NCBI RefSeq assembly: GCF_943914685.1
Contig: NZ_CALUCZ010000008.1
Span: forward strand, 4,109 to 68,108
Source of the DNA: an uncultured Mobiluncus sp.
GTDB taxonomy: Bacteria; Actinomycetota; Actinomycetes; Actinomycetales; Actinomycetaceae
Reading direction: 5' to 3'
DNA length: 64,000 nucleotides
Part shown: positions 6,116 to 62,187 of the stretch, piece after piece
Numbering within the stretch: position 1 is the stretch's first letter
Layout of the letters: every line of letters begins with the position of its first letter
The notes under the pieces: model-generated
Database searches by the model: none
Seen by the model: only the letters and a program-made list of their open reading frames with translations
Told to the model about the DNA's origin: nothing
Position numbers and translations under genes: made by a program

Positions 6116-6190
6116 ATCCCATTCCGGGAAATAATCCCCGTGTGGGGCTTTAATCCTATTAATTTGGGTTTTAGTTCTGCGTGATGGTCG

Positions 6191-6293
6191 CTCGGGGGCG
6201 CTCGCGAGAGGCGGAAGGGGGAGTACCCCCTCGCGTTTTGCGCGACTATTGTCGCAAAACGCTCACCCCCCAGCCTCTCGCTGAGTCGCCCCC
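6191..6293. other. GC-rich nested palindromic element: a long imperfect outer stem enclosing two hairpins. Lies between convergent genes.
   Basis: Outer arms ctcgggggcgctcgcgagaggc / gcctctcgctgagtcgcccccaa. Inner hairpins agggggagtaccccct and gcgttttgcgcgac-tatt-gtcgcaaaacgc. Confidence 0.3.
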
Positions 6294-6379
6294 AATGCTC
6301 CCCTCCCCGCCAGCTCCGCCGAATTCCGGTGTCTATAACTAGATTTCAGCGCTATTCAGGTGTGAAACCTGCCTCGGTA

Positions 6380-6475
6380 TCGGGGTGCGCGTGGATTAAA
6401 GGTGAAAATAGGGCAGTAGCTGCCAATAATGGCAGCTACTGCCCAAATCCCACCTTATATCCGCAACCCAGCGAG
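6380..6475. repeat. Hairpin-repeat family, copy 1. Core: GGGCAGTAGCTGCC-aataat-GGCAGCTACTGCCC (6410-6443).
   Basis: Perfect 14-bp stem with loop AATAAT. Shares the GCTGCCAATAATGGCAGC core and the downstream 'aaatcccaccttata..ccgcaaccca' flank with the copies at 30.1 and 31.6 kb. Confidence 0.5.
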
Positions 6476-6569
6476 TATCTCTTGATTTTTGGGAGCGAAC
6501 ATTCCTGGATTTCCCGAGTGTTTTCCCGGTGCCTTTTGGCTGATTCTGCGAGGAATCGCCGTGCGGGGG

Positions 6570-28177: not shown

Positions 28178-28909
28178 ATGATATATGCACTCAGTGATAT
28201 ACACGGTTGTCTCGATGCTCTGGAAGACGCCTTGGCACGTATCGGGGATTTAGATGACATTCTGACGCCTGATTCCGATAATATGCTTATCTTCCTGGGC
28301 GATTACGTCGACGGTGGACCTGAGAGCGCATCTGTCTTATGCCGTATCCACGAGCTGCAACAACGCTATCCCGACAATGTCATCGTCCTCAAGGGAAACC
28401 ATGACGATTGGCTGCTGGATTTCCTCACCACCGATGAACCGCTATTTACCGTCACCTTCACTGAGGAAACCTTGTGCAGTTTCCTCCCCGCGTCCGTTAT
28501 CGACAGCTTTTCCGGAATCGGTTCCTTCGAGGTACTCCCAGCCATTCGAACCTATATTTTGGAGCACTATCCGTGGCTGGTGGGTTGGCTGCGTTCGCTG
28601 CCGCTCTATTTTAAGACGGAAACTCAGGTGTTCGTCCACGCCGGTATCGATGAGGACGCTGCGGAATGGTGGGAGTTGGGCACCAGCGAAGACGTGATGC
28701 TCAATAAGTACCCGCCCATGACCGGACCATTCCTCCTCGATGTTATTGCGGGTCATGTCGGCTCGGGGCAAGTGGCGGACGATCCGACTTTCCATGATGT
28801 GTTCTATGACGGATACTCGCACTACTTCATTGATGGCTCGGTGATACAATCTCAGCGGATTCCCGTTCTCACCTACGACACTGAGACAGGACAGTACGGT
28901 TCAATCTGA
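28178..28909 (+). CDS. Calcineurin-like metallophosphoesterase (PPP-family phosphatase / ApaH-like).
   Basis: 243 aa. Motifs 'DIHGC', 'GDYVDGGPES', 'GNHDDW'. Confidence 0.75.
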   Translation: MIYALSDIHGCLDALEDALARIGDLDDILTPDSDNMLIFLGDYVDGGPESASVLCRIHELQQRYPDNVIVLKGNHDDWLLDFLTTDEPLFTVTFTEETLCSFLPASVIDSFSGIGSFEVLPAIRTYILEHYPWLVGWLRSLPLYFKTETQVFVHAGIDEDAAEWWELGTSEDVMLNKYPPMTGPFLLDVIAGHVGSGQVADDPTFHDVFYDGYSHYFIDGSVIQSQRIPVLTYDTETGQYGSI

Positions 28910-29003
28910 GCAAACGGCTCATGGGCAGTCCGCGCTGTTGATTCAGCGCCTGCCGCGACGGTGGTATCTCCGATTCGCCGGATTGTCAGCCCTGCTCAAA
29001 ACA

Positions 29004-29031
29004 ATGGTGGCGGCGCAAAATTACGCCGCCA
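29004..29031 (-). terminator. Terminator of sodA (minus strand).
   Basis: ggtggcggcg-caaaatta-cgccgccacc: a perfect 10-bp stem. On the minus strand it is followed by attgtttt. Confidence 0.5.
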
Positions 29032-29059
29032 CCATGAGACACAGTTCCTAGCTGAAAAC

Positions 29060-29680
29060 CTAGAGCACGCCGTGATGTTTGGCGGCAGCCTCGAAGCGGC
29101 CTTCGACCTCGGTCCAGTTCACCACGTTCCACCAGGCCTTGACATAGTCAGCCTTGACGTTCAAGTAGTCCAAATAGAAAGCGTGCTCCCACATATCCAG
29201 CATGAGCAGCGGAATCTGAGCAATCGGAATGTTCGACTGCTGGTCGAACAACTGGAAGATGACCGGGCGACCCGCCACACTGTCCCAAGCCAGCACCGCC
29301 CAGCCGGAGCCTTGCAGTCCGGTCGCGGCGGCGGTGAAGTGCTTTTGGAAGGCTTCAAAAGAACCGAAGTATTCATCAATCGCTGCCGCGAGTTCACCGC
29401 TGGGTCGGTCGGGGGTGTCGTTAGCCGGACCCATCATCTTCCAAAAAGCCGAGTGGTTAGCGTGTCCGCCCAGGTTGAAAGCGAGGTCCTTTTCGAGCTG
29501 GTTAATCGTGGCAAAGTTGCCGGTCGCGCGGGCTTCTTCGAGCTTTTCCAAAGCCGTGTTCGCGCCGTTCACATAGTTGGCGTGGTGCTTGTCGTGGTGC
29601 AGCTGCATAATCTTGCCGGAGATGTGCGGCTCCAGAGCAGCGTAATCGTAGGGGAGTTCGGGGAGGGTGTAAACCGCCAT
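29060..29680 (-). CDS. sodA: Superoxide dismutase [Mn/Fe].
   Basis: 206 aa. 'HHDKHH', 'DMWEHAFYLDY' and other canonical Fe/Mn-SOD signatures. Confidence 0.9.
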   Translation of the reverse strand: MAVYTLPELPYDYAALEPHISGKIMQLHHDKHHANYVNGANTALEKLEEARATGNFATINQLEKDLAFNLGGHANHSAFWKMMGPANDTPDRPSGELAAAIDEYFGSFEAFQKHFTAAATGLQGSGWAVLAWDSVAGRPVIFQLFDQQSNIPIAQIPLLMLDMWEHAFYLDYLNVKADYVKAWWNVVNWTEVEGRFEAAAKHHGVL

Positions 29681-29863
29681 GTTTTGTTCCTAACTGTTGC
29701 AGTCAGATCCGGATTGACCCGACGGCTTGATTCTATCCGAGCATACGCGGGCTGTCTGCGGAGTATCGCCTATAGCAAAATCCGGGCCGTTAAATTTCTC
29801 GCCCAGCCGGTATATATGTAGAATAGTAGGCGCTGCTTTTTGTGCAGAATAACTAAATACCTG

Positions 29864-29947
29864 GAGGATTCGCCTAGTGGCCTATGGCGCACGCTTGGAA
29901 AGCGTGTTGGGTGCAAGCCCTCGGGGGTTCGAATCCCCCATCCTCCG
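29864..29947 (+). tRNA. tRNA-Ser (anticodon GGA).
   Basis: Acceptor stem GGAGGAT/ATCCTCC. Anticodon stem-loop cacgc-TTGGAAA-gcgtg. Long variable arm (class II). T-arm gggggTTCGAATccccc. Discriminator G. No encoded CCA. Confidence 0.85.
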
Positions 29948-30075
29948 CTGGTGGTGATGTCCGGCTTGTGCCGGGCATCATTTTCATTTGCACAAGGTCG
30001 GTGGGGCGAGACCCGTGACGGCCAGCGGTTTTCGTGGCGAACCTGCCGCCTCCCTGTGTTCTTCGCCTCGCGCCT

Positions 30076-30246
30076 AGCCAAACAGCACCGCGCAAACGCC
30101 GGCAAGAATCAGGGGATACTCGGTTGGTTGCGGATAAATAGTGGGATTTGGGCTGCAGCTGCCAATAATGGCAGCTGCAGCCCAAATCCCACCTTATAGC
30201 TACGCGCACTCCGCTACCCACCAAGAAACCGCCGGCCAAATCGCCA
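30076..30246. repeat. Hairpin-repeat family, copy 2. Core: TGGGATTTGGGCTGCAGCTGCC-aataat-GGCAGCTGCAGCCCAAATCCCA (30142-30191).
   Basis: 22-bp perfect stem with the same AATAAT loop and GCTGCC/GGCAGC loop-closing bases as copies 1 and 3. Both flanks ('agccaaaca.accgcgcaaacg.cggc.aga.tcaggggatactcg', 'tata..c.cgc.cactccgc.acccaccaa.aaaccgccg.cc') are shared with copy 3. Confidence 0.5.
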
Positions 30247-30272
30247 GGAAACCGCGATTTAGATTCAAGATA

Positions 30273-30303
30273 AAACCGCCTTGGCGTGGTGCCAAGACGG
30301 TTT
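30273..30303 (-). terminator. Hairpin plus T-run terminator for the 88-aa minus-strand gene.
   Basis: Minus-strand sequence aaaccgtcttggc-accac-gccaaggcggttttatctt. Confidence 0.4.
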
Positions 30304-30394
30304 GAATCCGAAATAAGTGAAAGCGGGCTGGCTCTTCCGAGCTGAAAAGCCTAGTGGAACGGCGGCTCCGCCTTCGCTTCCGGTTTACGTTATG

Positions 30395-30661
30395 TTACAA
30401 GCCCTGGGATTCCATGAGCTCTTCGTAATATTCCTCGTCATAGATGTCTTTCAGCGCTAGGACTTCATCAAGAAGTTCTTGCGTGAGGGGTTTGTTGTCA
30501 TTGGTGACTATAGCCGTCACCCCAACGAGAGGGACGAAAATCCCATCTTCTTCAAGGGCGCATAGCATATCGTTGCGCTCCTGTGCGGTAGCGTAGCCCT
30601 CGGCATATAAGTGCTCAAGCAGGGCTGCAACTCTTTTTTCATTCTCATTCATGTCCGTCAA
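30395..30661 (-). CDS. Small acidic hypothetical protein (88 aa).
   Basis: Clean ORF with its own downstream terminator; very acidic (E/D-rich). No motif recognised. Confidence 0.4.
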   Translation of the reverse strand: MTDMNENEKRVAALLEHLYAEGYATAQERNDMLCALEEDGIFVPLVGVTAIVTNDNKPLTQELLDEVLALKDIYDEEYYEELMESQGL

Positions 30662-30967
30662 TCCCTTTTCGTCCCACCCCAGTTTGCAGGAATCTTTTCC
30701 GTATTTTACCCGGTTGGGTGTTTACGTTGATGTCTCTACAGGGCGTTGGGAAGGCTGATCTGAATGTGGAATATTTACGCTCATAAGCAGCGACTTCCAT
30801 TTGAACACCATAAATCATCTTCCGTACTGTTTTCCTTTCGCCTTTGGCGCTTACTCTGTCGGGGTTTTGGTTTGTTAGGAAGGGGAGATGGACGACAACG
30901 GTTCCGAAAACCTGTTTTCAGCGGTAACCCCTTGCCGGTGACGACATTTATGTGACACAATAATCAT

Positions 30968-31219
30968 GTGGAAGTGTTCGAATCAGCTCTTAAACATGGG
31001 GTTGACCCGGCAGATGCGCTCTATGTGGTGCAGCACGCTCTACGAAGTTTCCTGATGAGAGAAGACCCGAGGAAAGTCCTGTACCTGGGCTTTTCTTCCA
31101 GTGGGCAAGCCTTAGAAGTTGTGACTGCTGAGACAGAGCTTTTCGGCGAGGCTTTGATTCATTCGATGCCTATGCGCAAGAGGTATCAAAAACTGATGGA
31201 AGGAGGACGAGATGAGTGA
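30968..31219 (+). CDS. BrnT-family (DUF497) type II toxin, short form.
   Basis: 84 aa from a GTG start. '...LKHGV...' and a C-terminal 'IHSMPMRKRYQK' resemble BrnT. It overlaps the following RHH antitoxin gene by 8 nt. Confidence 0.55.
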   Translation: MEVFESALKHGVDPADALYVVQHALRSFLMREDPRKVLYLGFSSSGQALEVVTAETELFGEALIHSMPMRKRYQKLMEGGRDE

Positions 31220-31505
31220 CATGCGGATAAGGAAATTTGACGAACTTTCCCCGGAGGAAGCAGAAATGCTGGAGCGTGACGTAGCTGAGGCTGAACGTGG
31301 TTACAGCATGGCGCAGCTTGACGCGGGTGAGAAACGGATGCGTGGTCGTCCTCTGAGTGTGGGAGATAGCCCTGCTGTCAAGGTACTGCGGGTGCGCATC
31401 GACCAGGAGCGTGATGCAAAACTTAGTAAATATATGAATGAGCACCACCTGACCCAGAGTGCTGCGGTGCGCGATTTACTGGATAAGGCACTGGCAGAAG
31501 TCTAG
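31212..31505 (+). CDS. BrnA-family antitoxin (CopG/ribbon-helix-helix).
   Basis: 97 aa. C-terminal RHH 'VRIDQERDAKLSKYMNEHHLTQSAAVRDLLDKAL'. Start overlaps the BrnT stop, the typical BrnT-BrnA order. Confidence 0.65.
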   Translation: MSDMRIRKFDELSPEEAEMLERDVAEAERGYSMAQLDAGEKRMRGRPLSVGDSPAVKVLRVRIDQERDAKLSKYMNEHHLTQSAAVRDLLDKALAEV

Positions 31506-31530
31506 GGACCCCAGCAGCGGCCCCGCGCTT

Positions 31531-31705
31531 AGCCAAACACACCGCGCAAACGTCGGCGAGAGTCAGGGGATACTCGCTCGGTTGTGCCTAAAAGGGGAGA
31601 ATAGCCGGGTAGCTGCCAATAATGGCAGCTACCCGGCTATTCTCCCCCTATAATCCACGCTCACTCCGCAACCCACCAACAAACCGCCGACCAACTCCCC
31701 GGGGG
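31531..31705. repeat. Hairpin-repeat family, copy 3. Core: GGGGAGAATAGCCGGGTAGCTGCC-aataat-GGCAGCTACCCGGCTATTCTCCCC (31594-31647).
   Basis: 24-bp perfect stem with the same loop and loop-closing bases. Flanks homologous to copy 2. Confidence 0.5.
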
Positions 31706-31758
31706 GCTCCGAAAGCCCAATTTCCAAAAAAATCCCAAATAAAACCTATTTAAACGTT

Positions 31759-31783
31759 CCGGTATGCCATATATGGCACACCG
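31759..31783. promoter_or_regulatory. Near-perfect palindrome ccggTATGCCATATATGGCAcaccg. It is the core of an approx. 45-bp imperfect palindrome (tttaaacg...cgtttaaa) upstream of the ABC importer operon.
   Basis: Seen directly. About 225 bp upstream of the substrate-binding protein gene start. Confidence 0.35.
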
Positions 31784-32007
31784 ACCCGTTTAAATCGGTT
31801 TAACGCACTATCGGCGCGGACCAGAGCCGAATCAGAGCAGGACCAAAGCTGCACCAGAGCCGGACCAAAGGTAAAAGATGGGTATGTTTTTAGTTATATT
31901 TAGGTTTTGCCTGTAAACTAGCCTCGTGCCACAAAAGTGGTATTACCCGAAAGTTCAGCGATGGCGCTGATGGCGCCAAGCTGAGGATATCTTTGGAGGC
32001 TAACCTC

Positions 32008-33663
32008 GTGAAGAAGCAACTAACTGCCATCGCTGCTGCGGCAGCCCTGGCATTGACGATGACTGCTTGCAGCTCTGGCTCGGACGGCGGCAGCGCTGAT
32101 GGCAAAACTGATCCCAACGCGGTAATCGTTGGTAATAATTCCGAGCCTCAACGCCCGCTGGTTCCGGCTGACACTAATGAGACCGGTGGCGGCTTGATTC
32201 TGGACCACATTTTTGCTGGCCTGGAATACTACGATGTCAAAGGCAACCCTCAGATGGAAGTTGCTGAATCTATCAAGTCTGACGACAACCAGAACTGGAC
32301 CATTAAAATCAAGGGCGATACCAAGTTCTCGGATGGCACTCCGGTGACTTCCAAGTCTTTCGTGGACGCCTGGAACCAGTCTGTGAAGCAAAGCATGCTC
32401 AACGCCAGCTTCTTTGAGTCCATTCAGGGCTATGACGAAGCGCTGAAAGTTGCGGAAGCCGCCATTGAAGCTGACAAAGAGAATGGGGTTGGCGACATGG
32501 ATATGAGCGGCCTGAAGGTAGTGGATGACACCACCTTCACCGTGGCTTTGAACCAGCCGGAATCTGACTTCCCGCTGCGTTTAGGCTACTCGGCGTTCTA
32601 TCCGCTACCGGAAGCCGGTATCGGCGACCGAGCCAAGGTCAAGGCCTACGGTGCAAACCCCATTACCAACGGTCCCTACCTGGTGAAAAAGGATTCCTGG
32701 AAGCACAACGAACAAATTGAGCTGATCCCGAACCCGGACTACAAGGGTGACCGCATGCCGAAGAACGGCGGGGTGACCTTCAAGTTCTACTCCACCCAGG
32801 ACGCGGCATATAACGACTTGCAGTCGGGCGCTTTGGACGTGTTGGACGCTATTCCGGACTCCGCGTTCGGAACCTACCAGGATGAGTTGGGCGACCGCTC
32901 GGTCAACGAGCCTTCCGCTATCTTCCAGTCCTTCACCTTCCCGAAGTCTGATGCTCGTTTCCAAGGCGAGGCCGGTGCCTTGCGTATGCAGGCTATCTCG
33001 ATGGCGATTAACCGTGAAGAAATCTGCAAGACCATCTTCCAGGACACTCGTACCCCCGCCATTGACTTCATTGCGCCGGTTATCCCCGGTCACAACGATT
33101 CGCTGAAGGGTAACGAGGTACTGAAGTTCAACCCGGAAAAGGCTAAGGAACTGTGGAAGCAGGCTGACGCGATTGAACCGTGGACTGGCGATTTGCAACT
33201 GGCATACAACTCTGATGGTGGCCACCAGGCATGGGTTGACGCGACGATGAACTCCATTAAGAACAATCTGGGTATTAATGCCAAGGGTGCTCCTTACCCG
33301 GACTTCAAGTCCATTCGTAACGAAGTCACCGACCGCACCATTAAGACGGCGTTCCGTACCGGTTGGCAGGCAGACTACCCCTCGCCTTACAACTTCCTCG
33401 GTCCGCTTTATCGCACCGGCGGTTCGGCTAACGACGGCGATTACTCCAACCCTGATTTCGACAATCTGCTCAAGCAGGCTCTGAACACCTCTGATCAGAA
33501 GGAAGCCTTTAAGATTTACGACCAGGCTCAGGAAATCCTGATGAAGGAATTGCCGACGATTCCGCTGTGGTACTCCAACGTCAACGGCGGTTGGGCAGAA
33601 GGCGTGCAGGGCGTCCAGTTCGACTGGCACTCCAAGCCGCTGTACTTCGACATCACCAAGTAA
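32008..33663 (+). CDS. ABC transporter substrate-binding lipoprotein, family 5 (oligopeptide/dipeptide/nickel type).
   Basis: Lipoprotein signal 'KKQLTAIAAAAALALTMTAC'. SBP_bac_5-like body. GGAGG RBS before GTG at 32008 (the ORF track starts 15 nt earlier). Confidence 0.85.
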   Translation: MKKQLTAIAAAAALALTMTACSSGSDGGSADGKTDPNAVIVGNNSEPQRPLVPADTNETGGGLILDHIFAGLEYYDVKGNPQMEVAESIKSDDNQNWTIKIKGDTKFSDGTPVTSKSFVDAWNQSVKQSMLNASFFESIQGYDEALKVAEAAIEADKENGVGDMDMSGLKVVDDTTFTVALNQPESDFPLRLGYSAFYPLPEAGIGDRAKVKAYGANPITNGPYLVKKDSWKHNEQIELIPNPDYKGDRMPKNGGVTFKFYSTQDAAYNDLQSGALDVLDAIPDSAFGTYQDELGDRSVNEPSAIFQSFTFPKSDARFQGEAGALRMQAISMAINREEICKTIFQDTRTPAIDFIAPVIPGHNDSLKGNEVLKFNPEKAKELWKQADAIEPWTGDLQLAYNSDGGHQAWVDATMNSIKNNLGINAKGAPYPDFKSIRNEVTDRTIKTAFRTGWQADYPSPYNFLGPLYRTGGSANDGDYSNPDFDNLLKQALNTSDQKEAFKIYDQAQEILMKELPTIPLWYSNVNGGWAEGVQGVQFDWHSKPLYFDITK

Positions 33664-33729
33664 TTTGGCGATAATTTGAGCTTGACTTGACGCGTCGAAA
33701 GACCGCCAAAAAGCCTGAAAATTGAACGA

Positions 33730-33767
33730 CTGCGGCCTGGGTGGGAAAAATCACTCCCAGGCCGCAG
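33730..33767 (+). terminator. Intra-operon stem-loop (attenuator/partial terminator) between the SBP and permease genes.
   Basis: ctgcggcctggg-tgggaaaaatcact-cccaggccgcag: a 12-bp perfect stem followed by ttacgttttcac. Confidence 0.45.
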
Positions 33768-33832
33768 TTACGTTTTCACTACCTTATCGGGGTAGAATCA
33801 TTGGGTTATTTCGATTTTGACAAGGAGGCGCC

Positions 33833-34759
33833 GTGGGACGATATCTCGGCCGCAGGCTCCTGCAGATTATTCCAGTGATGCTGGGTGCGACGCTGCTCAT
33901 CTACGCGCTGGTGTTCCTGATGCCAGGTGATCCGATTCAAGCTTTGGGCGGCGATCGTGGTTTGAGTGAGGCCGCCGCTGCCGCTATGCGCCGGCGTTAC
34001 CATCTGGATCAGCCATTCATCGTGCAATATCTGCTCTATCTGAAAGGCATCTTTACTCTAGACTTCGGGCTGACGTTCTCAGGTCGGGAAGTCACCGAAG
34101 TTATGGCTTCGGCTTTCCCCGTGACGATTAAGCTGGCTCTGATGGCTTTGGCGTTCGAAGCACTCTTTGGGATTGTGTTTGGGACGATTGCGGGTCTGAA
34201 GCGCGGGGGTATTTTTGACGCCACGGTTTTGGTGGTTTCGCTGTTCGTCATTGCCGTGCCGACTTTCGTCATTGGTTTCGTGATGCAGTTCCTCATAGGG
34301 GTGAAGCTGGGGTGGCTACCCACTACCGTGGGGGCAAACACATCTTTCGAAAGGCTGCTGATGCCTGCCATCGTTTTGGGGGCGGTGTCTTTCGCGTATG
34401 TGCTGCGTTTGACCCGCCAATCCGTGTCCGAGACCGTGTCGGCCGACCATGTGCGTACCGCTTATGCCAAGGGTCTGCGTCCCGGACGAGTTATTCGGGT
34501 ACATATCCTGCGTAACTCGCTGATTCCGGTCGCGACTTTCCTGGGCGCTGACCTGGGGGCGCTGATGGGTGGAGCCATCGTGACCGAGGGTATTTTTGCC
34601 ATCAACGGGGTGGGCGGCAATATTTACCAAGCCATTATCAAAGGCGAACCTGCCACAGTCGTCTCCTTTACCACCGTACTGGTGATGGTCTACATCTTGG
34701 CGAACCTCATCGTCGACCTGACATACGCCCTCCTGGACCCGCGGATTCGCTACGAGTAA
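33833..34759 (+). CDS. ABC transporter permease (OppB/DppB-like).
   Basis: 308 aa. Six TM helices and an EAA-type motif 'AYAKGLRPGRVIRVHILRNSLIPV'. AAGGAGG RBS. Confidence 0.85.
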   Translation: MGRYLGRRLLQIIPVMLGATLLIYALVFLMPGDPIQALGGDRGLSEAAAAAMRRRYHLDQPFIVQYLLYLKGIFTLDFGLTFSGREVTEVMASAFPVTIKLALMALAFEALFGIVFGTIAGLKRGGIFDATVLVVSLFVIAVPTFVIGFVMQFLIGVKLGWLPTTVGANTSFERLLMPAIVLGAVSFAYVLRLTRQSVSETVSADHVRTAYAKGLRPGRVIRVHILRNSLIPVATFLGADLGALMGGAIVTEGIFAINGVGGNIYQAIIKGEPATVVSFTTVLVMVYILANLIVDLTYALLDPRIRYE

Positions 34760-34770
34760 GGAGGGGGAAC

Positions 34771-35739
34771 ATGGCAAACGAAAACGAGAACACTGTGGAA
34801 ACGAAAACTTTGCCCGGACAGTCCCACTACGTTTCGGAAATCGACGAAACCGGTCTGGGGGCGGTAGATGCCGTAGCCGACGACCGCGCTCCCTCCTCCA
34901 TGTGGGGAGAGGCGTGGAAGTACCTGCGCAAACGTCCCCTGTTTTGGGTGGCGGCCGCCATTATTTTGTTCGCTGTGATGCTGGCGGCTTTCCCCAGCCT
35001 GTTCACCAGCGTGGATCCGAAGTTTTGCGAGCTAAAGAACTCTTACGGTCAACCCAGTGCCGGACACCCGTTCGGGTTTGACCGGCAGGGTTGCGACATT
35101 ATGGCGCGTACCGTTTACGGGGCGCGCGCCTCTGTAATCGTGGGAATCTTAACCACCGTGGTGGTGGTGCTCATAGGCGGCACGTTCGGAACCTTGGCAG
35201 GATTCTTTGGCGGCTGGTTGGACACAATCCTCTCCCGTATCACCGACATTATTTTCGCGGTACCATTCCTGCTGGCAGCCATCGTGGTTATGCAGATGTT
35301 CAGGGAAAACCGCACCATCTTTACGGTAGTTTTGGTGTTGGCGGTGTTTGGGTGGCCGCAAATCGCGCGTATTACCCGCGGGGCCGTGATGCAAACCAAG
35401 AACGAGGAATTCGTCAACGCTGCCAAGGCTTTAGGCGAAAGTAAGGTTCGTATCATCTTGCGTCACATCGTGCCTAACGCGACCGCTCCGATGATTGTTT
35501 ACGCCACCGTGGCTCTGGGGACGTTCATTGTGTCAGAAGCGACGCTGTCCTTCCTGGGTGTCGGCCTGCCTTCTGACGTGGTCAGCTGGGGTGGAGATAT
35601 TTCCCGCGCTCAGTCCGCACTGCGTCAAAACCCGTCAGTCCTGTTCTATCCGGCTGGCGCGCTGGCTATGACCGTTTTGAGCTTCATCATGATGGGTGAC
35701 GTGGTTCGCGATGCCCTCGATCCGAAAGCGAGGAAGTAA
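34771..35739 (+). CDS. ABC transporter permease (OppC/DppC-like).
   Basis: 322 aa. TM bundle with 'AAKALGESKVRIILRHIVPNATAPMIVYAT'. Confidence 0.85.
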   Translation: MANENENTVETKTLPGQSHYVSEIDETGLGAVDAVADDRAPSSMWGEAWKYLRKRPLFWVAAAIILFAVMLAAFPSLFTSVDPKFCELKNSYGQPSAGHPFGFDRQGCDIMARTVYGARASVIVGILTTVVVVLIGGTFGTLAGFFGGWLDTILSRITDIIFAVPFLLAAIVVMQMFRENRTIFTVVLVLAVFGWPQIARITRGAVMQTKNEEFVNAAKALGESKVRIILRHIVPNATAPMIVYATVALGTFIVSEATLSFLGVGLPSDVVSWGGDISRAQSALRQNPSVLFYPAGALAMTVLSFIMMGDVVRDALDPKARK

Positions 35740-44504: not shown

Positions 44505-44537
44505 CTTTTTGGGGCTGGCACACGCCAGCCCCAAAAA
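44505..44537. terminator. Bidirectional rho-independent terminator between convergent dapD and the CAP-domain gene.
   Basis: ctttttggggctggc-acac-gccagccccaaaaag, with T/A runs on both sides. Confidence 0.6.
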
Positions 44538-44594
44538 GTTTATTAAGTTAGGAACAGTTTATTCGGTTGGGTGTGCTCCCTGTTTAAGGACGTT

Positions 44595-47627: not shown

Positions 47628-47695
47628 GACTCCATCGTCTCACAACCCCCGAATGTGAAAAATCGCGAGTTCGAAACCTGCACCCGGGGCTACAC

Positions 47696-62054: not shown

Positions 62055-62187
62055 GGTCGAAAATGCCCGGTGAGCTGTGATTACAGGGCTGAATCGGGTT
62101 TAATTCAATAGTTTTGGGGTTCCCGGTTCGCTAGCTGCGGTTGGCGGACCGGGAACTTCAAGTTTCCGACTTCAGGTTGATAGGGTT

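What the first reader, a model, noticed from the sequence alone, without database searches (positions are those of the whole stretch)
6380..6475. Three-copy hairpin repeat family whose stems differ between copies yet stay fully complementary (copies at 6.4, 30.1 and 31.6 kb)
All three copies share the loop and closing bases GCTGCC-AATAAT-GGCAGC. The distal stems differ in sequence yet remain perfectly complementary. Copy 1 has a 14-bp stem (GGGCAGTA...). Copy 2 has a 22-bp stem (TGGGATTTGGGCTGCA...). Copy 3 has a 24-bp stem (GGGGAGAATAGCCGGGTA...). Copies 2 and 3 additionally share about 60 bp of 5' flank (agccaaaca.accgcgcaaacg.cggc.aga.tcaggggatactcg) and about 50 bp of 3' flank (tata..cgc.cactccgc.acccaccaa.aaaccgccg.cc). 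Copy 1 shares only the 3' 'aaatcccaccttata..ccgcaaccca' part. The stem divergence could reflect compensatory change or simply different insertion junctions; either way it points to selection on structure, for example an sRNA, an intrinsic terminator family, or a REP/MITE-like element recognised as a DNA hairpin. Copies 2 and 3 bracket the BrnTA module next to tRNA-Ser.
Basis: seen in the sequence. Interest (0 to 1): 0.6.

Follow-up and report, generated by a model that had tools for sequence, protein, structure and literature searches.

The report
Mobiluncus intergenic palindromic repeat family
The three hairpins belong to a so-far undescribed family of small palindromic repeats scattered between genes in Mobiluncus genomes; their matching stems are best explained by copies overwriting one another, so this is an ordinary kind of bacterial repeat in a new host.

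Summary
The 18-mer GCTGCCAATAATGGCAGC occurs exactly three times, where 0.02 is expected by chance, and each copy tops a long hairpin. The copies belong to a repeat family specific to the genus Mobiluncus. I recovered 133 copies (116 unique) from seven genomes and many metagenome contigs.

Each copy is a stem of about 29 bp. The tip is nearly invariant (GYAGCTGCC-AATAAT-GGCAGCTRC), the mid-stem varies (58 arm variants) and the foot is A/T-rich. Many copies sit inside a 115-185 bp imperfect palindrome. Copies are intergenic.

Covariation between the arms is strong, but about 27% of copies are chimeras with arms of different types. The loop lies in either orientation relative to the flanks. Orthologous loci carry wholly different stem types, and one close strain has copy 2 overwritten by copy 3. 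Folding shows no strand bias. No Rfam family, no plasmid or phage match and no Y1 transposase were found.

Best reading: a REP/MITE-like palindromic DNA repeat kept symmetric by gene conversion and template switching, probably serving as a terminator in places. It is a new member of a known kind, of modest interest.

The parts
6376..6489 (.). Copy 1, whole unit of about 114 bp. It consists of the X arm (GGTATCGGGGTGCGCGTGGATTAAAGG), the hairpin, and the Y arm (...TATCCGCAACCCAGCGAGTATCTCTTGATTTT). By its flanks it is inverted relative to copies 2 and 3.
   Evidence: minus-strand alignment to copies 2 and 3; covariance model, 77.6 bits at 6387-6468.
6393..6462 (.). Copy 1 hairpin. The arms are 33 nt and 82% complementary, with only 14 bp perfect (6411-6444). 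The arms are of two different types, so the copy is a chimera.
   Evidence: On the minus strand it is flagged as terminator-like, with tail TATTTTCACC.
30065..30248 (.). Copy 2, long form of 184 bp. It is the left member of a direct-repeat pair and lies 117 bp downstream of tRNA-Ser.
   Evidence: (repeat blocks D1, D2, D4).
30141..30192 (.). Copy 2 perfect hairpin, 23 bp with a 6-nt loop. The stem type is GTGGGATTTGGGCTGCA.
   Evidence: Covariance model, 89 bits at 30126-30207.
31520..31703 (.). Copy 3, long form of 184 bp. It is the right member of the direct-repeat pair.
31589..31652 (.). Copy 3 hairpin. The arms are 30 nt and 93% complementary, with 24 bp perfect (31594-31647). The stem type is GGGGAGAATAGCCGGGTA, the commonest type in the family.
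   Evidence: Covariance model, 89.4 bits at 31580-31661.
30249..31519 (+). The 1.27-kb segment between copies 2 and 3. It holds an 88-aa ORF (30395-30661, minus strand) and two overlapping small ORFs (30968-31219 and 31212-31505). The segment is variable between strains.
   Evidence: absent from L015, L001 and L064, which have a single copy; L062 and L050 have only the right part and one copy; present in L154, L157 and L203. No family assignment.
47670..47678 (.). Empty site. Four other assemblies carry a family copy plus extra sequence here (an insert of about 317-350 bp). The junction shows a short repeat G(G/A)TTT(T)C.
   Evidence: L054, L047; L115, L230.

Best explanation
The three hairpins are copies of a dispersed, intergenic, palindromic DNA repeat family specific to the genus Mobiluncus. 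It is REP/MITE-like, with roughly tens of copies per genome.

Each copy is a stem of about 29 bp. The tip is almost invariant (G-T/C-AGCTGCC, loop AATAAT, GGCAGCT-A/G-C), the middle of the stem is variable, and the foot is A/T-rich. Many copies are embedded in a longer imperfect palindrome of 115-185 bp with distinct X and Y outer arms.

Shown here:
- Copies are old and mostly sit at orthologous sites across species.
- Their stems come in many alternative, mostly self-complementary types.
- Whole types are swapped at orthologous sites.
- A neighbouring copy can overwrite another.
- Half-swapped chimeras are common.
- The loop is found in either orientation.

Inferred:
- The 'compensated' stems are produced mainly by non-reciprocal recombination between copies, anchored on the conserved tip and outer arms.
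- Template switching within the palindrome also contributes. It makes the two arms alike and inverts the loop.
- Selection on an RNA fold is not the main cause.
- Where a copy lies just past stop codons, it probably acts as a bidirectional transcription terminator or 3'-end stabiliser.
- The near-invariance of the tip suggests either that it seeds the conversion or that some host protein binds it.
For: **Family and distribution**
- The exact 18-mer scan of one genome per species hit 111+ stretches. All hits with the characteristic arms are Mobiluncus: M. curtisii ATCC 35241 (at least 10), M. mulieris ATCC 35243 and five MAGs.
- A metagenome scan with a free loop added about 93 more.
- The total is 133 copies, 116 unique.
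- There is no match in plasmid or phage collections.

**Anatomy**
- The alignment of 52 copies is ungapped. Over the 29-pair helix, 88.3% of cells pair against 78.2% in shuffles (0/500). Thirteen pairs change on both sides, and slid controls pair at 33-48%.
- Tip conservation is not just ascertainment. 7 of 8 copies not selected on the core have the exact 18-mer, and about 97% of loops are AATAAT or ATTATT when the loop is left free.

**Conversion**
- At orthologous loci matched on both flanks, up to 10 of 23 arm positions differ on both arms while the flanks are 85-96% identical. Other orthologues have identical stems although the flanks are only 85% identical.
- Strain L154 is 96% identical to the window across 29004-35734, yet its copy 2 has been replaced over about 150 bp by copy-3 sequence.
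- 31 of 116 copies have at least 4 mismatches in the 17 stem positions next to the core, because their arms are of different types. 58 distinct arms were seen.

**Loop inversion**
- Window copy 1 compared with copies 2 and 3.
- Orthologous pairs with flipped loops.
- 31 against 15 among flank-oriented copies.
- Template switching between inverted-repeat arms is reported to homogenise arms and invert spacers (PMC8604942, PMC8794818).

**DNA level rather than RNA level**
- There is no strand asymmetry of folding energy in 46 oriented copies (20 against 24).

**Context**
- Essentially all copies are intergenic: 13 between convergent genes, 14 between tandem genes and 8 between divergent genes. 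Several fill the gap of about 100 bp between convergent stop codons.
- Copies 1 and 2 score as terminator-like on the minus strand.
- Ordinary terminators in this window are also long perfect hairpins.

**Polymorphism**
- The window site 47670-47678 is empty where four other assemblies are filled.
Against: - The mechanism is inferred from comparative patterns only. No conversion or template-switch event was observed directly.
- The many distinct, perfectly paired stem types still need a symmetrising force, and selection on a hairpin (ssDNA or RNA) cannot be excluded as a contributor.
- The strict conservation of the asymmetric loop and tip is not explained by passive conversion alone. It hints at a specific recognising factor that I could not identify.
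- Whole genomes could not be searched for a transposase.
- Eight copies lie in divergent promoter regions, where a terminator role makes no sense.
- Gene calls in the fetched loci are my own crude longest-ORF calls. Many loci are orthologues, so the context counts are not independent.
Confidence: 0.7

Rival explanations
1. RAYT-mobilised REP/REPIN-type element. The hairpin would be recognised as single-stranded DNA by a dedicated HUH tyrosine transposase, which would cut at the GTAG motif and copy the element around the genome. Hairpin integrity would then be selected because it is needed for mobilisation.
For: - The element is extragenic, palindromic and in multiple copies.
- A GTAG/GCAG motif (GYAG) directly borders the invariant tip, with CTAC/CTGC mirrored on the other side. 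GTAG tags degenerate to GYAG in known REP families (PMC3733652).
- Compensatory changes across the hairpin are described for REPINs (PMC3116915).
- One locus shows presence/absence polymorphism.
Against: - No Y1 transposase homologue was found by tblastn in 421 kb of repeat-bearing Mobiluncus sequence, where RAYTs would be expected because they are flanked by their REPs. This is a weak test: one probe was not validated by Pfam and whole genomes were not searched.
- The architecture is the opposite of REPINs. Here the centre is conserved and the flanking stem is variable, whereas REPINs have conserved ends and a variable spacer (PMC3116915).
- GTAG lies inside a perfect stem, not at a terminus.
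- Copy number appears to be tens per genome, not hundreds.
- Most copies are fixed at orthologous sites across species.
Confidence: 0.12
2. The hairpins are primarily intrinsic, bidirectional transcription terminators or mRNA 3' stabilisers. They would have spread or been retained for that function, and stem complementarity would be kept by selection on the RNA hairpin.
For: - The stem is strong and carries A/T-rich, T-dominated segments at both feet (TTTTAG, TATAAT, TTATAT).
- Copies 1 and 2 are flagged terminator-like on the minus strand.
- Many copies sit 30-75 nt past stop codons and between convergent genes.
- Unique terminators in the same window are also 14-23-bp perfect hairpins.
Against: - 8 of 35 scorable contexts are between divergent genes.
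- A terminator has no need for an invariant 24-nt tip and loop, nor for 115-185-bp extended arms.
- 27% of copies have badly mismatched arms.
- There is no G-U strand bias.
- The T-rich foot is usually paired with the A-rich foot, so there is no free U-tail.
Confidence: 0.1
3. The palindromes are recombination sites, comparable to pdif sites or integron attC sites. They would bound small exchangeable gene modules and be recognised by a site-specific recombinase that crosses over in the 6-bp asymmetric centre.
For: - The 6-9-bp inverted arms around a 6-bp asymmetric spacer resemble tyrosine-recombinase core sites (established knowledge; this is a lead only).
- Copies 2 and 3 are direct repeats around a 1.27-kb accessory segment that is cleanly absent, leaving one copy, in L015, L001 and L064.
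- Other pairs flank a 283-aa REase-like gene (L012, L044, L053, L003/L029) and a DUF4143 ATPase (L038).
- Chimeric copies have a switch point at the tip.
Against: - The loss could equally be homologous recombination between two 184-bp direct repeats.
- L062 and L050 carry the right half of the module with only one copy, so module boundaries are not always at a repeat.
- Most copies are solitary.
- Chimeras keep both orthologous flanks, which indicates conversion rather than crossover.
- Paired copies are in mixed orientation.
- No recombinase gene lies next to the pairs examined.
- attC hallmarks such as extrahelical bases and R/L boxes are absent from these perfect stems.
Confidence: 0.06
4. 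A family of small structured RNAs (sRNA or antisense) whose stem covaries under selection.
For: - Covariation in the stem is strong.
- Predicted folds are very stable (z-scores from -6.7 to -11).
Against: - There is no Rfam match above any gathering score; only sub-threshold generic miRNA-hairpin models matched.
- Both strands fold equally well across 46 oriented copies.
- The loop is in either orientation relative to the flanks and genes.
- No consistent promoter was found.
- Chimeras that destroy the stem are common.
Confidence: 0.03

Closest known systems
REP / REPIN elements of Proteobacteria (RAYT-associated; Bertels and Rainey 2011, PMC3116915; Di Nocera et al. 2013, PMC3733652)
   Same: - Short, extragenic, palindromic and in multiple copies.
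- Lineage-specific and vertically persistent at orthologous sites.
- Form long hairpins, and changes on the two sides of the hairpin are matched.
- A GTAG/GYAG motif is present.
- Enriched near gene 3' ends.
   Different: - Here the hairpin tip and loop are the invariant part and the mid-stem is variable. REPINs have conserved ends and a variable spacer.
- GTAG is buried in a perfect stem.
- Copy number appears to be tens, not hundreds.
- No RAYT was found in the sequence available.
- The host is an actinobacterium, and Mobiluncus is not mentioned in the REP surveys consulted.
Bacterial MITEs and long palindromic repeats (for example ERIC/IRU, Correia elements, RUP; review PMC10969869)
   Same: - A 115-185-bp imperfect palindrome with inverted terminal arms.
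- Intergenic, with presence/absence polymorphism at one locus.
- A possible short target repeat.
- Can provide terminator-like hairpins.
   Different: - No parent insertion sequence with matching ends was seen.
- The target-site duplication is not established.
- Most copies are fixed across species.
- The perfect 23-29-bp central stem with an invariant tip is not a usual MITE feature.
Inverted repeats homogenised by replication template switching (PMC8604942, PMC8794818, PMC5941160)
   Same: The two arms become identical and the spacer or loop is inverted. Both signatures are seen here.
   Different: Those reports concern unique inverted repeats. Here the process would act on a dispersed family, together with conversion between copies.

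Membership tests
REP/REPIN (RAYT-associated) | Extragenic palindromic sequence repeated in the genome | tested here: met
   133 copies, nearly all between long ORFs.
REP/REPIN (RAYT-associated) | Conserved GTAG (GYAG) tag at one end of the stem-loop, the RAYT cleavage site | tested here: inconclusive
   GTAG or GCAG is present in all copies. However, it is base-paired inside the stem next to the tip and mirrored by CTAC, and it is not at a terminus (definition from PMC3733652).
REP/REPIN (RAYT-associated) | REPIN layout: two conserved inverted REP ends separated by a less conserved spacer | tested here: not met
   Here the centre (24-nt tip plus loop) is invariant and the stem around it is variable (layout from PMC3116915).
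REP/REPIN (RAYT-associated) | Cognate RAYT (Y1/HUH) gene, typically flanked by the repeats | tested here: inconclusive
   tblastn with an IS200 TnpA probe (validated by Pfam) and a recalled YafM probe (not validated) gave nothing below E=0.25 in 421 kb of repeat-bearing loci plus the window. Whole genomes could not be searched.
REP/REPIN (RAYT-associated) | High copy number (usually more than 100 per genome; PMC2817692) | tested here: inconclusive
   At least 10 copies in M. curtisii ATCC 35241, although the scan was truncated. Two long metagenome contigs carry 3-4 copies per 210-230 kb. This suggests tens per genome.
MITE | Terminal inverted repeats on a short non-coding element | tested here: met
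   The X and Y outer arms pair, so the whole 115-185-bp unit folds as one imperfect hairpin.
MITE | Target-site duplication | tested here: inconclusive
   A short G(G/A)TTT(T)C repeat is seen at the only filled-versus-empty site. However, the insert there is composite (repeat plus about 250 bp of other sequence), and the motif overlaps the X-arm end.
MITE | Presence/absence polymorphism between related genomes | tested here: met
   Window 47670-47678 is empty, while L054, L047, L115 and L230 are filled. Copy 2 is absent in L062.
MITE | Parent insertion sequence with the same ends | tested here: inconclusive
   Arm motifs almost never occur away from a hairpin tip in all fetched sequence. Full genomes were not searched.
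Intrinsic (Rho-independent) terminator | G+C-rich hairpin followed by a T-run | tested here: inconclusive
   Copies 1 and 2 are flagged on the minus strand and copy 3 is not. In most copies the T-rich foot is paired with the A-rich foot, leaving no free tail.
Intrinsic (Rho-independent) terminator | Position downstream of genes in the direction of transcription | tested here: inconclusive
   13 convergent, 14 tandem and 8 divergent contexts. The gene calls are crude and the loci are not independent.
Described RNA family (Rfam 15) | Match at or above a family's gathering score | tested here: not met
   Only the tRNA passed. Permissive searches gave only sub-threshold generic miRNA-hairpin models.
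Integron attC / pdif-type recombination site | Sites bound discrete gene modules and are accompanied by a cognate recombinase; attC sites have imperfect stems with extrahelical bases | tested here: not met
   - Most copies are solitary.
- The stems are perfect.
- Module boundaries are not always at a copy.
- No recombinase lies next to the pairs examined.
- There is a single suggestive case, at the tRNA-Ser locus.

The most novel reading that the evidence does not exclude
The invariant 24-nt hairpin tip, with its conserved asymmetric loop, is the recognition site of a dedicated and still unidentified Mobiluncus protein that acts on the hairpin or cruciform. This could be a non-RAYT nuclease, transposase or recombinase. 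It would drive arm-by-arm replacement, loop inversion, and occasional capture or loss of small accessory modules between paired copies, such as the tRNA-Ser segment, the REase-like gene and the DUF4143 ATPase. That would be a new hairpin-directed mobilisation or cassette-exchange system in Actinomycetaceae.
Probability: 0.1. Interest if true: 0.65.

Novelty: new member of a known kind. Interest (0 to 1): 0.3.

Why it matters
- **A new host for a known kind of repeat.** Small palindromic repeat families are well studied in Proteobacteria but hardly at all in Actinomycetaceae. This one gives Mobiluncus, a genus associated with bacterial vaginosis, a genus-specific marker usable for typing and for detecting assembly breaks.
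- **A caution about covariation.** It is a clear natural example of 'compensatory' stem covariation arising from gene conversion and template switching rather than from selection on an RNA fold. This matters for covariation-based RNA discovery.
- **A possible further lead.** If the invariant tip proves to have a protein partner, it could lead to a new hairpin-recognising enzyme.

Tried and rejected
- **Rfam.** Gathering and permissive searches found only the tRNA and sub-threshold miRNA-like hairpin models.
- **Other copies in the window.** An unfiltered covariance-model search found only the three. The weak hits are ordinary terminators and a different palindrome.
- **Strand-specific RNA structure.** The X-to-Y strand folded better in all three window copies. 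This did not hold in 46 oriented copies (20 against 24), so I dropped it.
- **Loop orientation fixed by replication direction.** Rejected, because copies on the same contig have mixed orientations.
- **Free U-tail after the stem.** Mostly absent, because the A/T foot is paired.
- **Y1/RAYT search.** Nothing found, but the test is weak.
- **The 283-aa gene flanked by two copies as a candidate mobilising enzyme.** It has a sub-threshold MTES_1575 REase-like domain and occurs only as single orthologues. It is not associated with other copies.
- **Plasmid and phage collections.** No match.
- **The 18-mer outside Mobiluncus.** The Prevotellaceae MAG RUG12065 carries a different repeat that happens to share the 18-mer. 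Hits in Vibrio and others are isolated terminators or coding sequence.
- **Link to the retron reverse transcriptase found 4 kb upstream.** Rejected, because the family has more than 100 copies with no reverse transcriptase nearby.
- **Literature.** No paper in the held library describes palindromic repeats in Mobiluncus.

Full report
**1. The observation**

The 18-mer GCTGCCAATAATGGCAGC is present exactly at 6419, 30158 and 31612 on the + strand. Chance expectation is 0.02.

- Copy 1 has a 14-bp perfect stem inside 33-nt arms that are 82% complementary.
- Copy 2 has a 23-bp perfect stem.
- Copy 3 has a 24-bp perfect stem inside 30-nt arms that are 93% complementary.
- Copies 2 and 3 are direct repeats of about 184 bp (30065-30248 and 31520-31703), 1454-1455 bp apart.
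- tRNA-Ser(GGA) lies at 29863-29948.

By its flanks, copy 1 is a complete copy in the opposite orientation. It aligns to copies 2 and 3 over 106-116 nt on the minus strand, and only the palindrome itself aligns on the plus strand. Yet its loop reads AATAAT on the same strand as the others.

**2. It is a genus-wide repeat family**

A scan of one genome per species for the 18-mer returned 111+ stretches. Every hit with the characteristic arms came from Mobiluncus: M. curtisii ATCC 35241 (at least 10 copies), M. mulieris ATCC 35243 and five MAGs. Other hits are an unrelated Prevotellaceae repeat, isolated terminators or coding sequence.

The window is 82-89% identical to M. curtisii ATCC 35241 and 93-96% identical to some MAGs and metagenome contigs. 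It therefore comes from a Mobiluncus lineage.

A metagenome scan with the loop left free (GTAGCTGCC-N6-GGCAGCTAC) added about 93 Mobiluncus-type copies. In all there are 133 copies, 116 of them unique.

There is no match in plasmid or phage collections, no Rfam family, and no paper in the held library on such repeats in Mobiluncus.

**3. Anatomy**

The 52 genome-derived copies align without gaps. The parts are:

- an invariant tip, G(T/C)AGCTGCC - AATAAT - GGCAGCT(A/G)C;
- a mid-stem of about 14 bp that varies (58 distinct 17-nt arms);
- a conserved GG(G/T)GG...CC(C/A)CC block;
- an A/T-rich foot such as TATAAT, TTTTAG or TTATAT.

Many copies carry further outer arms. I call these X (GGTTTCGGGG..GCGTGGATTA) and Y (GTGCCTAAAA or GCGGATA, then ..CGAGTA..GATTCT). 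With them the whole 115-185-bp unit is one imperfect palindrome.

The tip conservation is not only ascertainment. 7 of 8 copies that were not selected on the core have the exact 18-mer. With a free loop, about 97% of loops are AATAAT or ATTATT.

The covariance model finds no further copies in the window.

**4. The stems covary, but the cause is probably not selection on a fold**

Over a 29-pair helix, 88.3% of cells pair against 78.2% in shuffles (0/500). Thirteen pairs change on both sides, and slid controls pair at 33-48%. Most variable pairs are A:T<->T:A or G:C<->C:G flips that distinguish a few main stem types, plus recombinant-looking intermediates.

Four further observations point to copy-to-copy replacement:

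- **Type switching at orthologous loci.** At orthologous loci with both flanks matched, up to 10 of 23 arm positions differ on both arms although the flanks are 85-96% identical. Other orthologues have identical stems with flanks only 85% identical.
- **A direct example of conversion.** Strain L154 is 96% identical to the window over 29004-35734. Its copy 2 is replaced over about 150 bp by copy-3 sequence, while the window's copy 2 resembles the single copy of L015.
- **Common chimeras.** 31 of 116 copies (27%) have at least 4 mismatches in the 17 stem positions because their two arms are of different types. Window copy 1 is one of these, which explains its short perfect stem.
- **Loop inversion.** The loop is in either orientation relative to the flanks: 31 against 15 among oriented copies, and it is flipped between some orthologues.

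Template switching between inverted-repeat arms is reported to homogenise arms and invert the spacer (PMC8604942) and to create and maintain perfect hairpins (PMC8794818). Folding energy shows no strand preference in 46 oriented copies (20 against 24), which argues against a strand-specific RNA.

**5. Context and mobility**

Copies are intergenic: 13 between convergent genes, 14 between tandem genes and 8 between divergent genes. Several fill the roughly 100-bp gap between convergent stop codons (the ORF calls are crude and the loci are not independent).

Copies 1 and 2 score as terminator-like on the minus strand. Unique terminators in the window are also long perfect hairpins. A terminator side-role is therefore plausible, but it explains neither the invariant tip nor the copies in divergent regions.

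Most copies are fixed at orthologous sites across species. One site is polymorphic. Window 47670-47678 is empty, whereas L054, L047, L115 and L230 carry a copy plus other sequence, with a short G(G/A)TTT(T)C repeat at the junction.

**6. The tRNA-Ser locus**

Three arrangements are seen:

- The window, L154, L157 and L203 have copy 2, a 1.27-kb segment, then copy 3.
- L015, L001 and L064 have a single copy and no segment.
- L062 and L050 have only the right half of the segment and one copy.

This fits homologous recombination between 184-bp direct repeats in a variable tRNA-proximal spot at least as well as any site-specific mechanism. The two small overlapping ORFs look toxin-antitoxin-like by layout, but they match no Pfam or NCBIfam model, so 'BrnTA' is unconfirmed.

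**7. Search for a partner enzyme**

- No Y1/HUH transposase was detected by tblastn in 421 kb of repeat-bearing sequence. This is a weak test.
- Arm motifs do not occur away from hairpin tips, so no parent insertion sequence was seen.
- A 283-aa gene flanked by two copies in several genomes has a sub-threshold REase_MTES_1575 domain, but it occurs only as single orthologues.

**8. Verdict**

This is a REP/MITE-like palindromic DNA repeat family specific to Mobiluncus, and a new member of a known kind. Its 'REP/MITE-like' option is supported. Its sRNA option is not supported, and its inference of selection on structure is not required by the data. What remains unexplained is the strict conservation of the tip and its asymmetric loop, which leaves a small chance of a dedicated hairpin-recognising protein.

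Noticed in passing
window 19500-29003: A 9.5-kb segment just upstream of tRNA-Ser is absent from close relatives (L203 at 96% identity, and L157). It encodes a WYL regulator, a 971-aa double AAA+ ATPase, a retron-type reverse transcriptase (24905-26083; PADLOC RT_III-A, E=2.5e-102), a metallophosphoesterase and several unknowns. It looks like a strain-variable defence island carrying a retron. The 300-bp gap upstream of the reverse transcriptase (24604-24904) is the candidate msr/msd region, but one fold did not resolve it.
   Followed up: partly
window 6186-6320: A second repeat of about 125 bp (GCTCGCGAGAGGCGGAAGGGGGAGTACCCCCTCGCGTTTTGCGCGACTATTGTCGCAAAACGCTCACCCCCCAGCCTCTCGC...) has its own inverted arms at 6204-6223 and 6262-6281. 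It recurs at 87-98% identity, in either orientation, next to hairpin copies in L047, L065, L058, L101 and L125. It is missing from the orthologous site in L109, L178 and L218.
   Followed up: partly
window 31742-31801: A different palindrome has 30-nt arms that are 83% complementary and the centre TGTGCC-ATATAT-GGCACA. It lies about 120 bp from copy 3, upstream of the peptide-binding-protein gene. Near-identical centres (CGGTGTGCC ATATAT GGCACACCG) lie about 100-120 bp from family copies in L040, L058 and L101. It may be another repeat or a regulator-binding site.
   Followed up: partly
window 31818-31872: Four to five tandem copies of an 11-bp unit (GGACCAGAGCC-like) lie between copy 3 and the start of the SBP_bac_5 gene at 31993.
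   Followed up: no
window 19438-19480, 33728-33770, 44505-44538, 62113-62162: Unique gene-end hairpins with 14-23 perfect base pairs and 4-nt loops, several with A-tracts and T-tracts on both sides. Ordinary terminators in this organism are unusually long and perfect.
   Followed up: partly
L012 923-1774, L044 5666-6517, L003 6905-7756, L053 5212-6060: A conserved 283-aa protein is bracketed by two family copies in at least four genomes. It has a sub-threshold REase_MTES_1575 (PD-(D/E)XK-like) C-terminal domain and a weak AbiEi-like N-terminus.
   Followed up: partly
L013-L111 (contigs CACYME01..., Prevotellaceae MAG RUG12065): An unrelated, highly abundant repeat in a rumen Prevotellaceae MAG happens to contain the same 18-mer, in a context rich in GGCAGCG motifs (...TATTGGCAGCGGCC GCTGCCAATAATGGCAGC GGGCGGGAAAAACAATGGCAGCG...).
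   Followed up: no
The only weak hits are HTH_67 and DUF6290 on the second ORF.
   Followed up: yes
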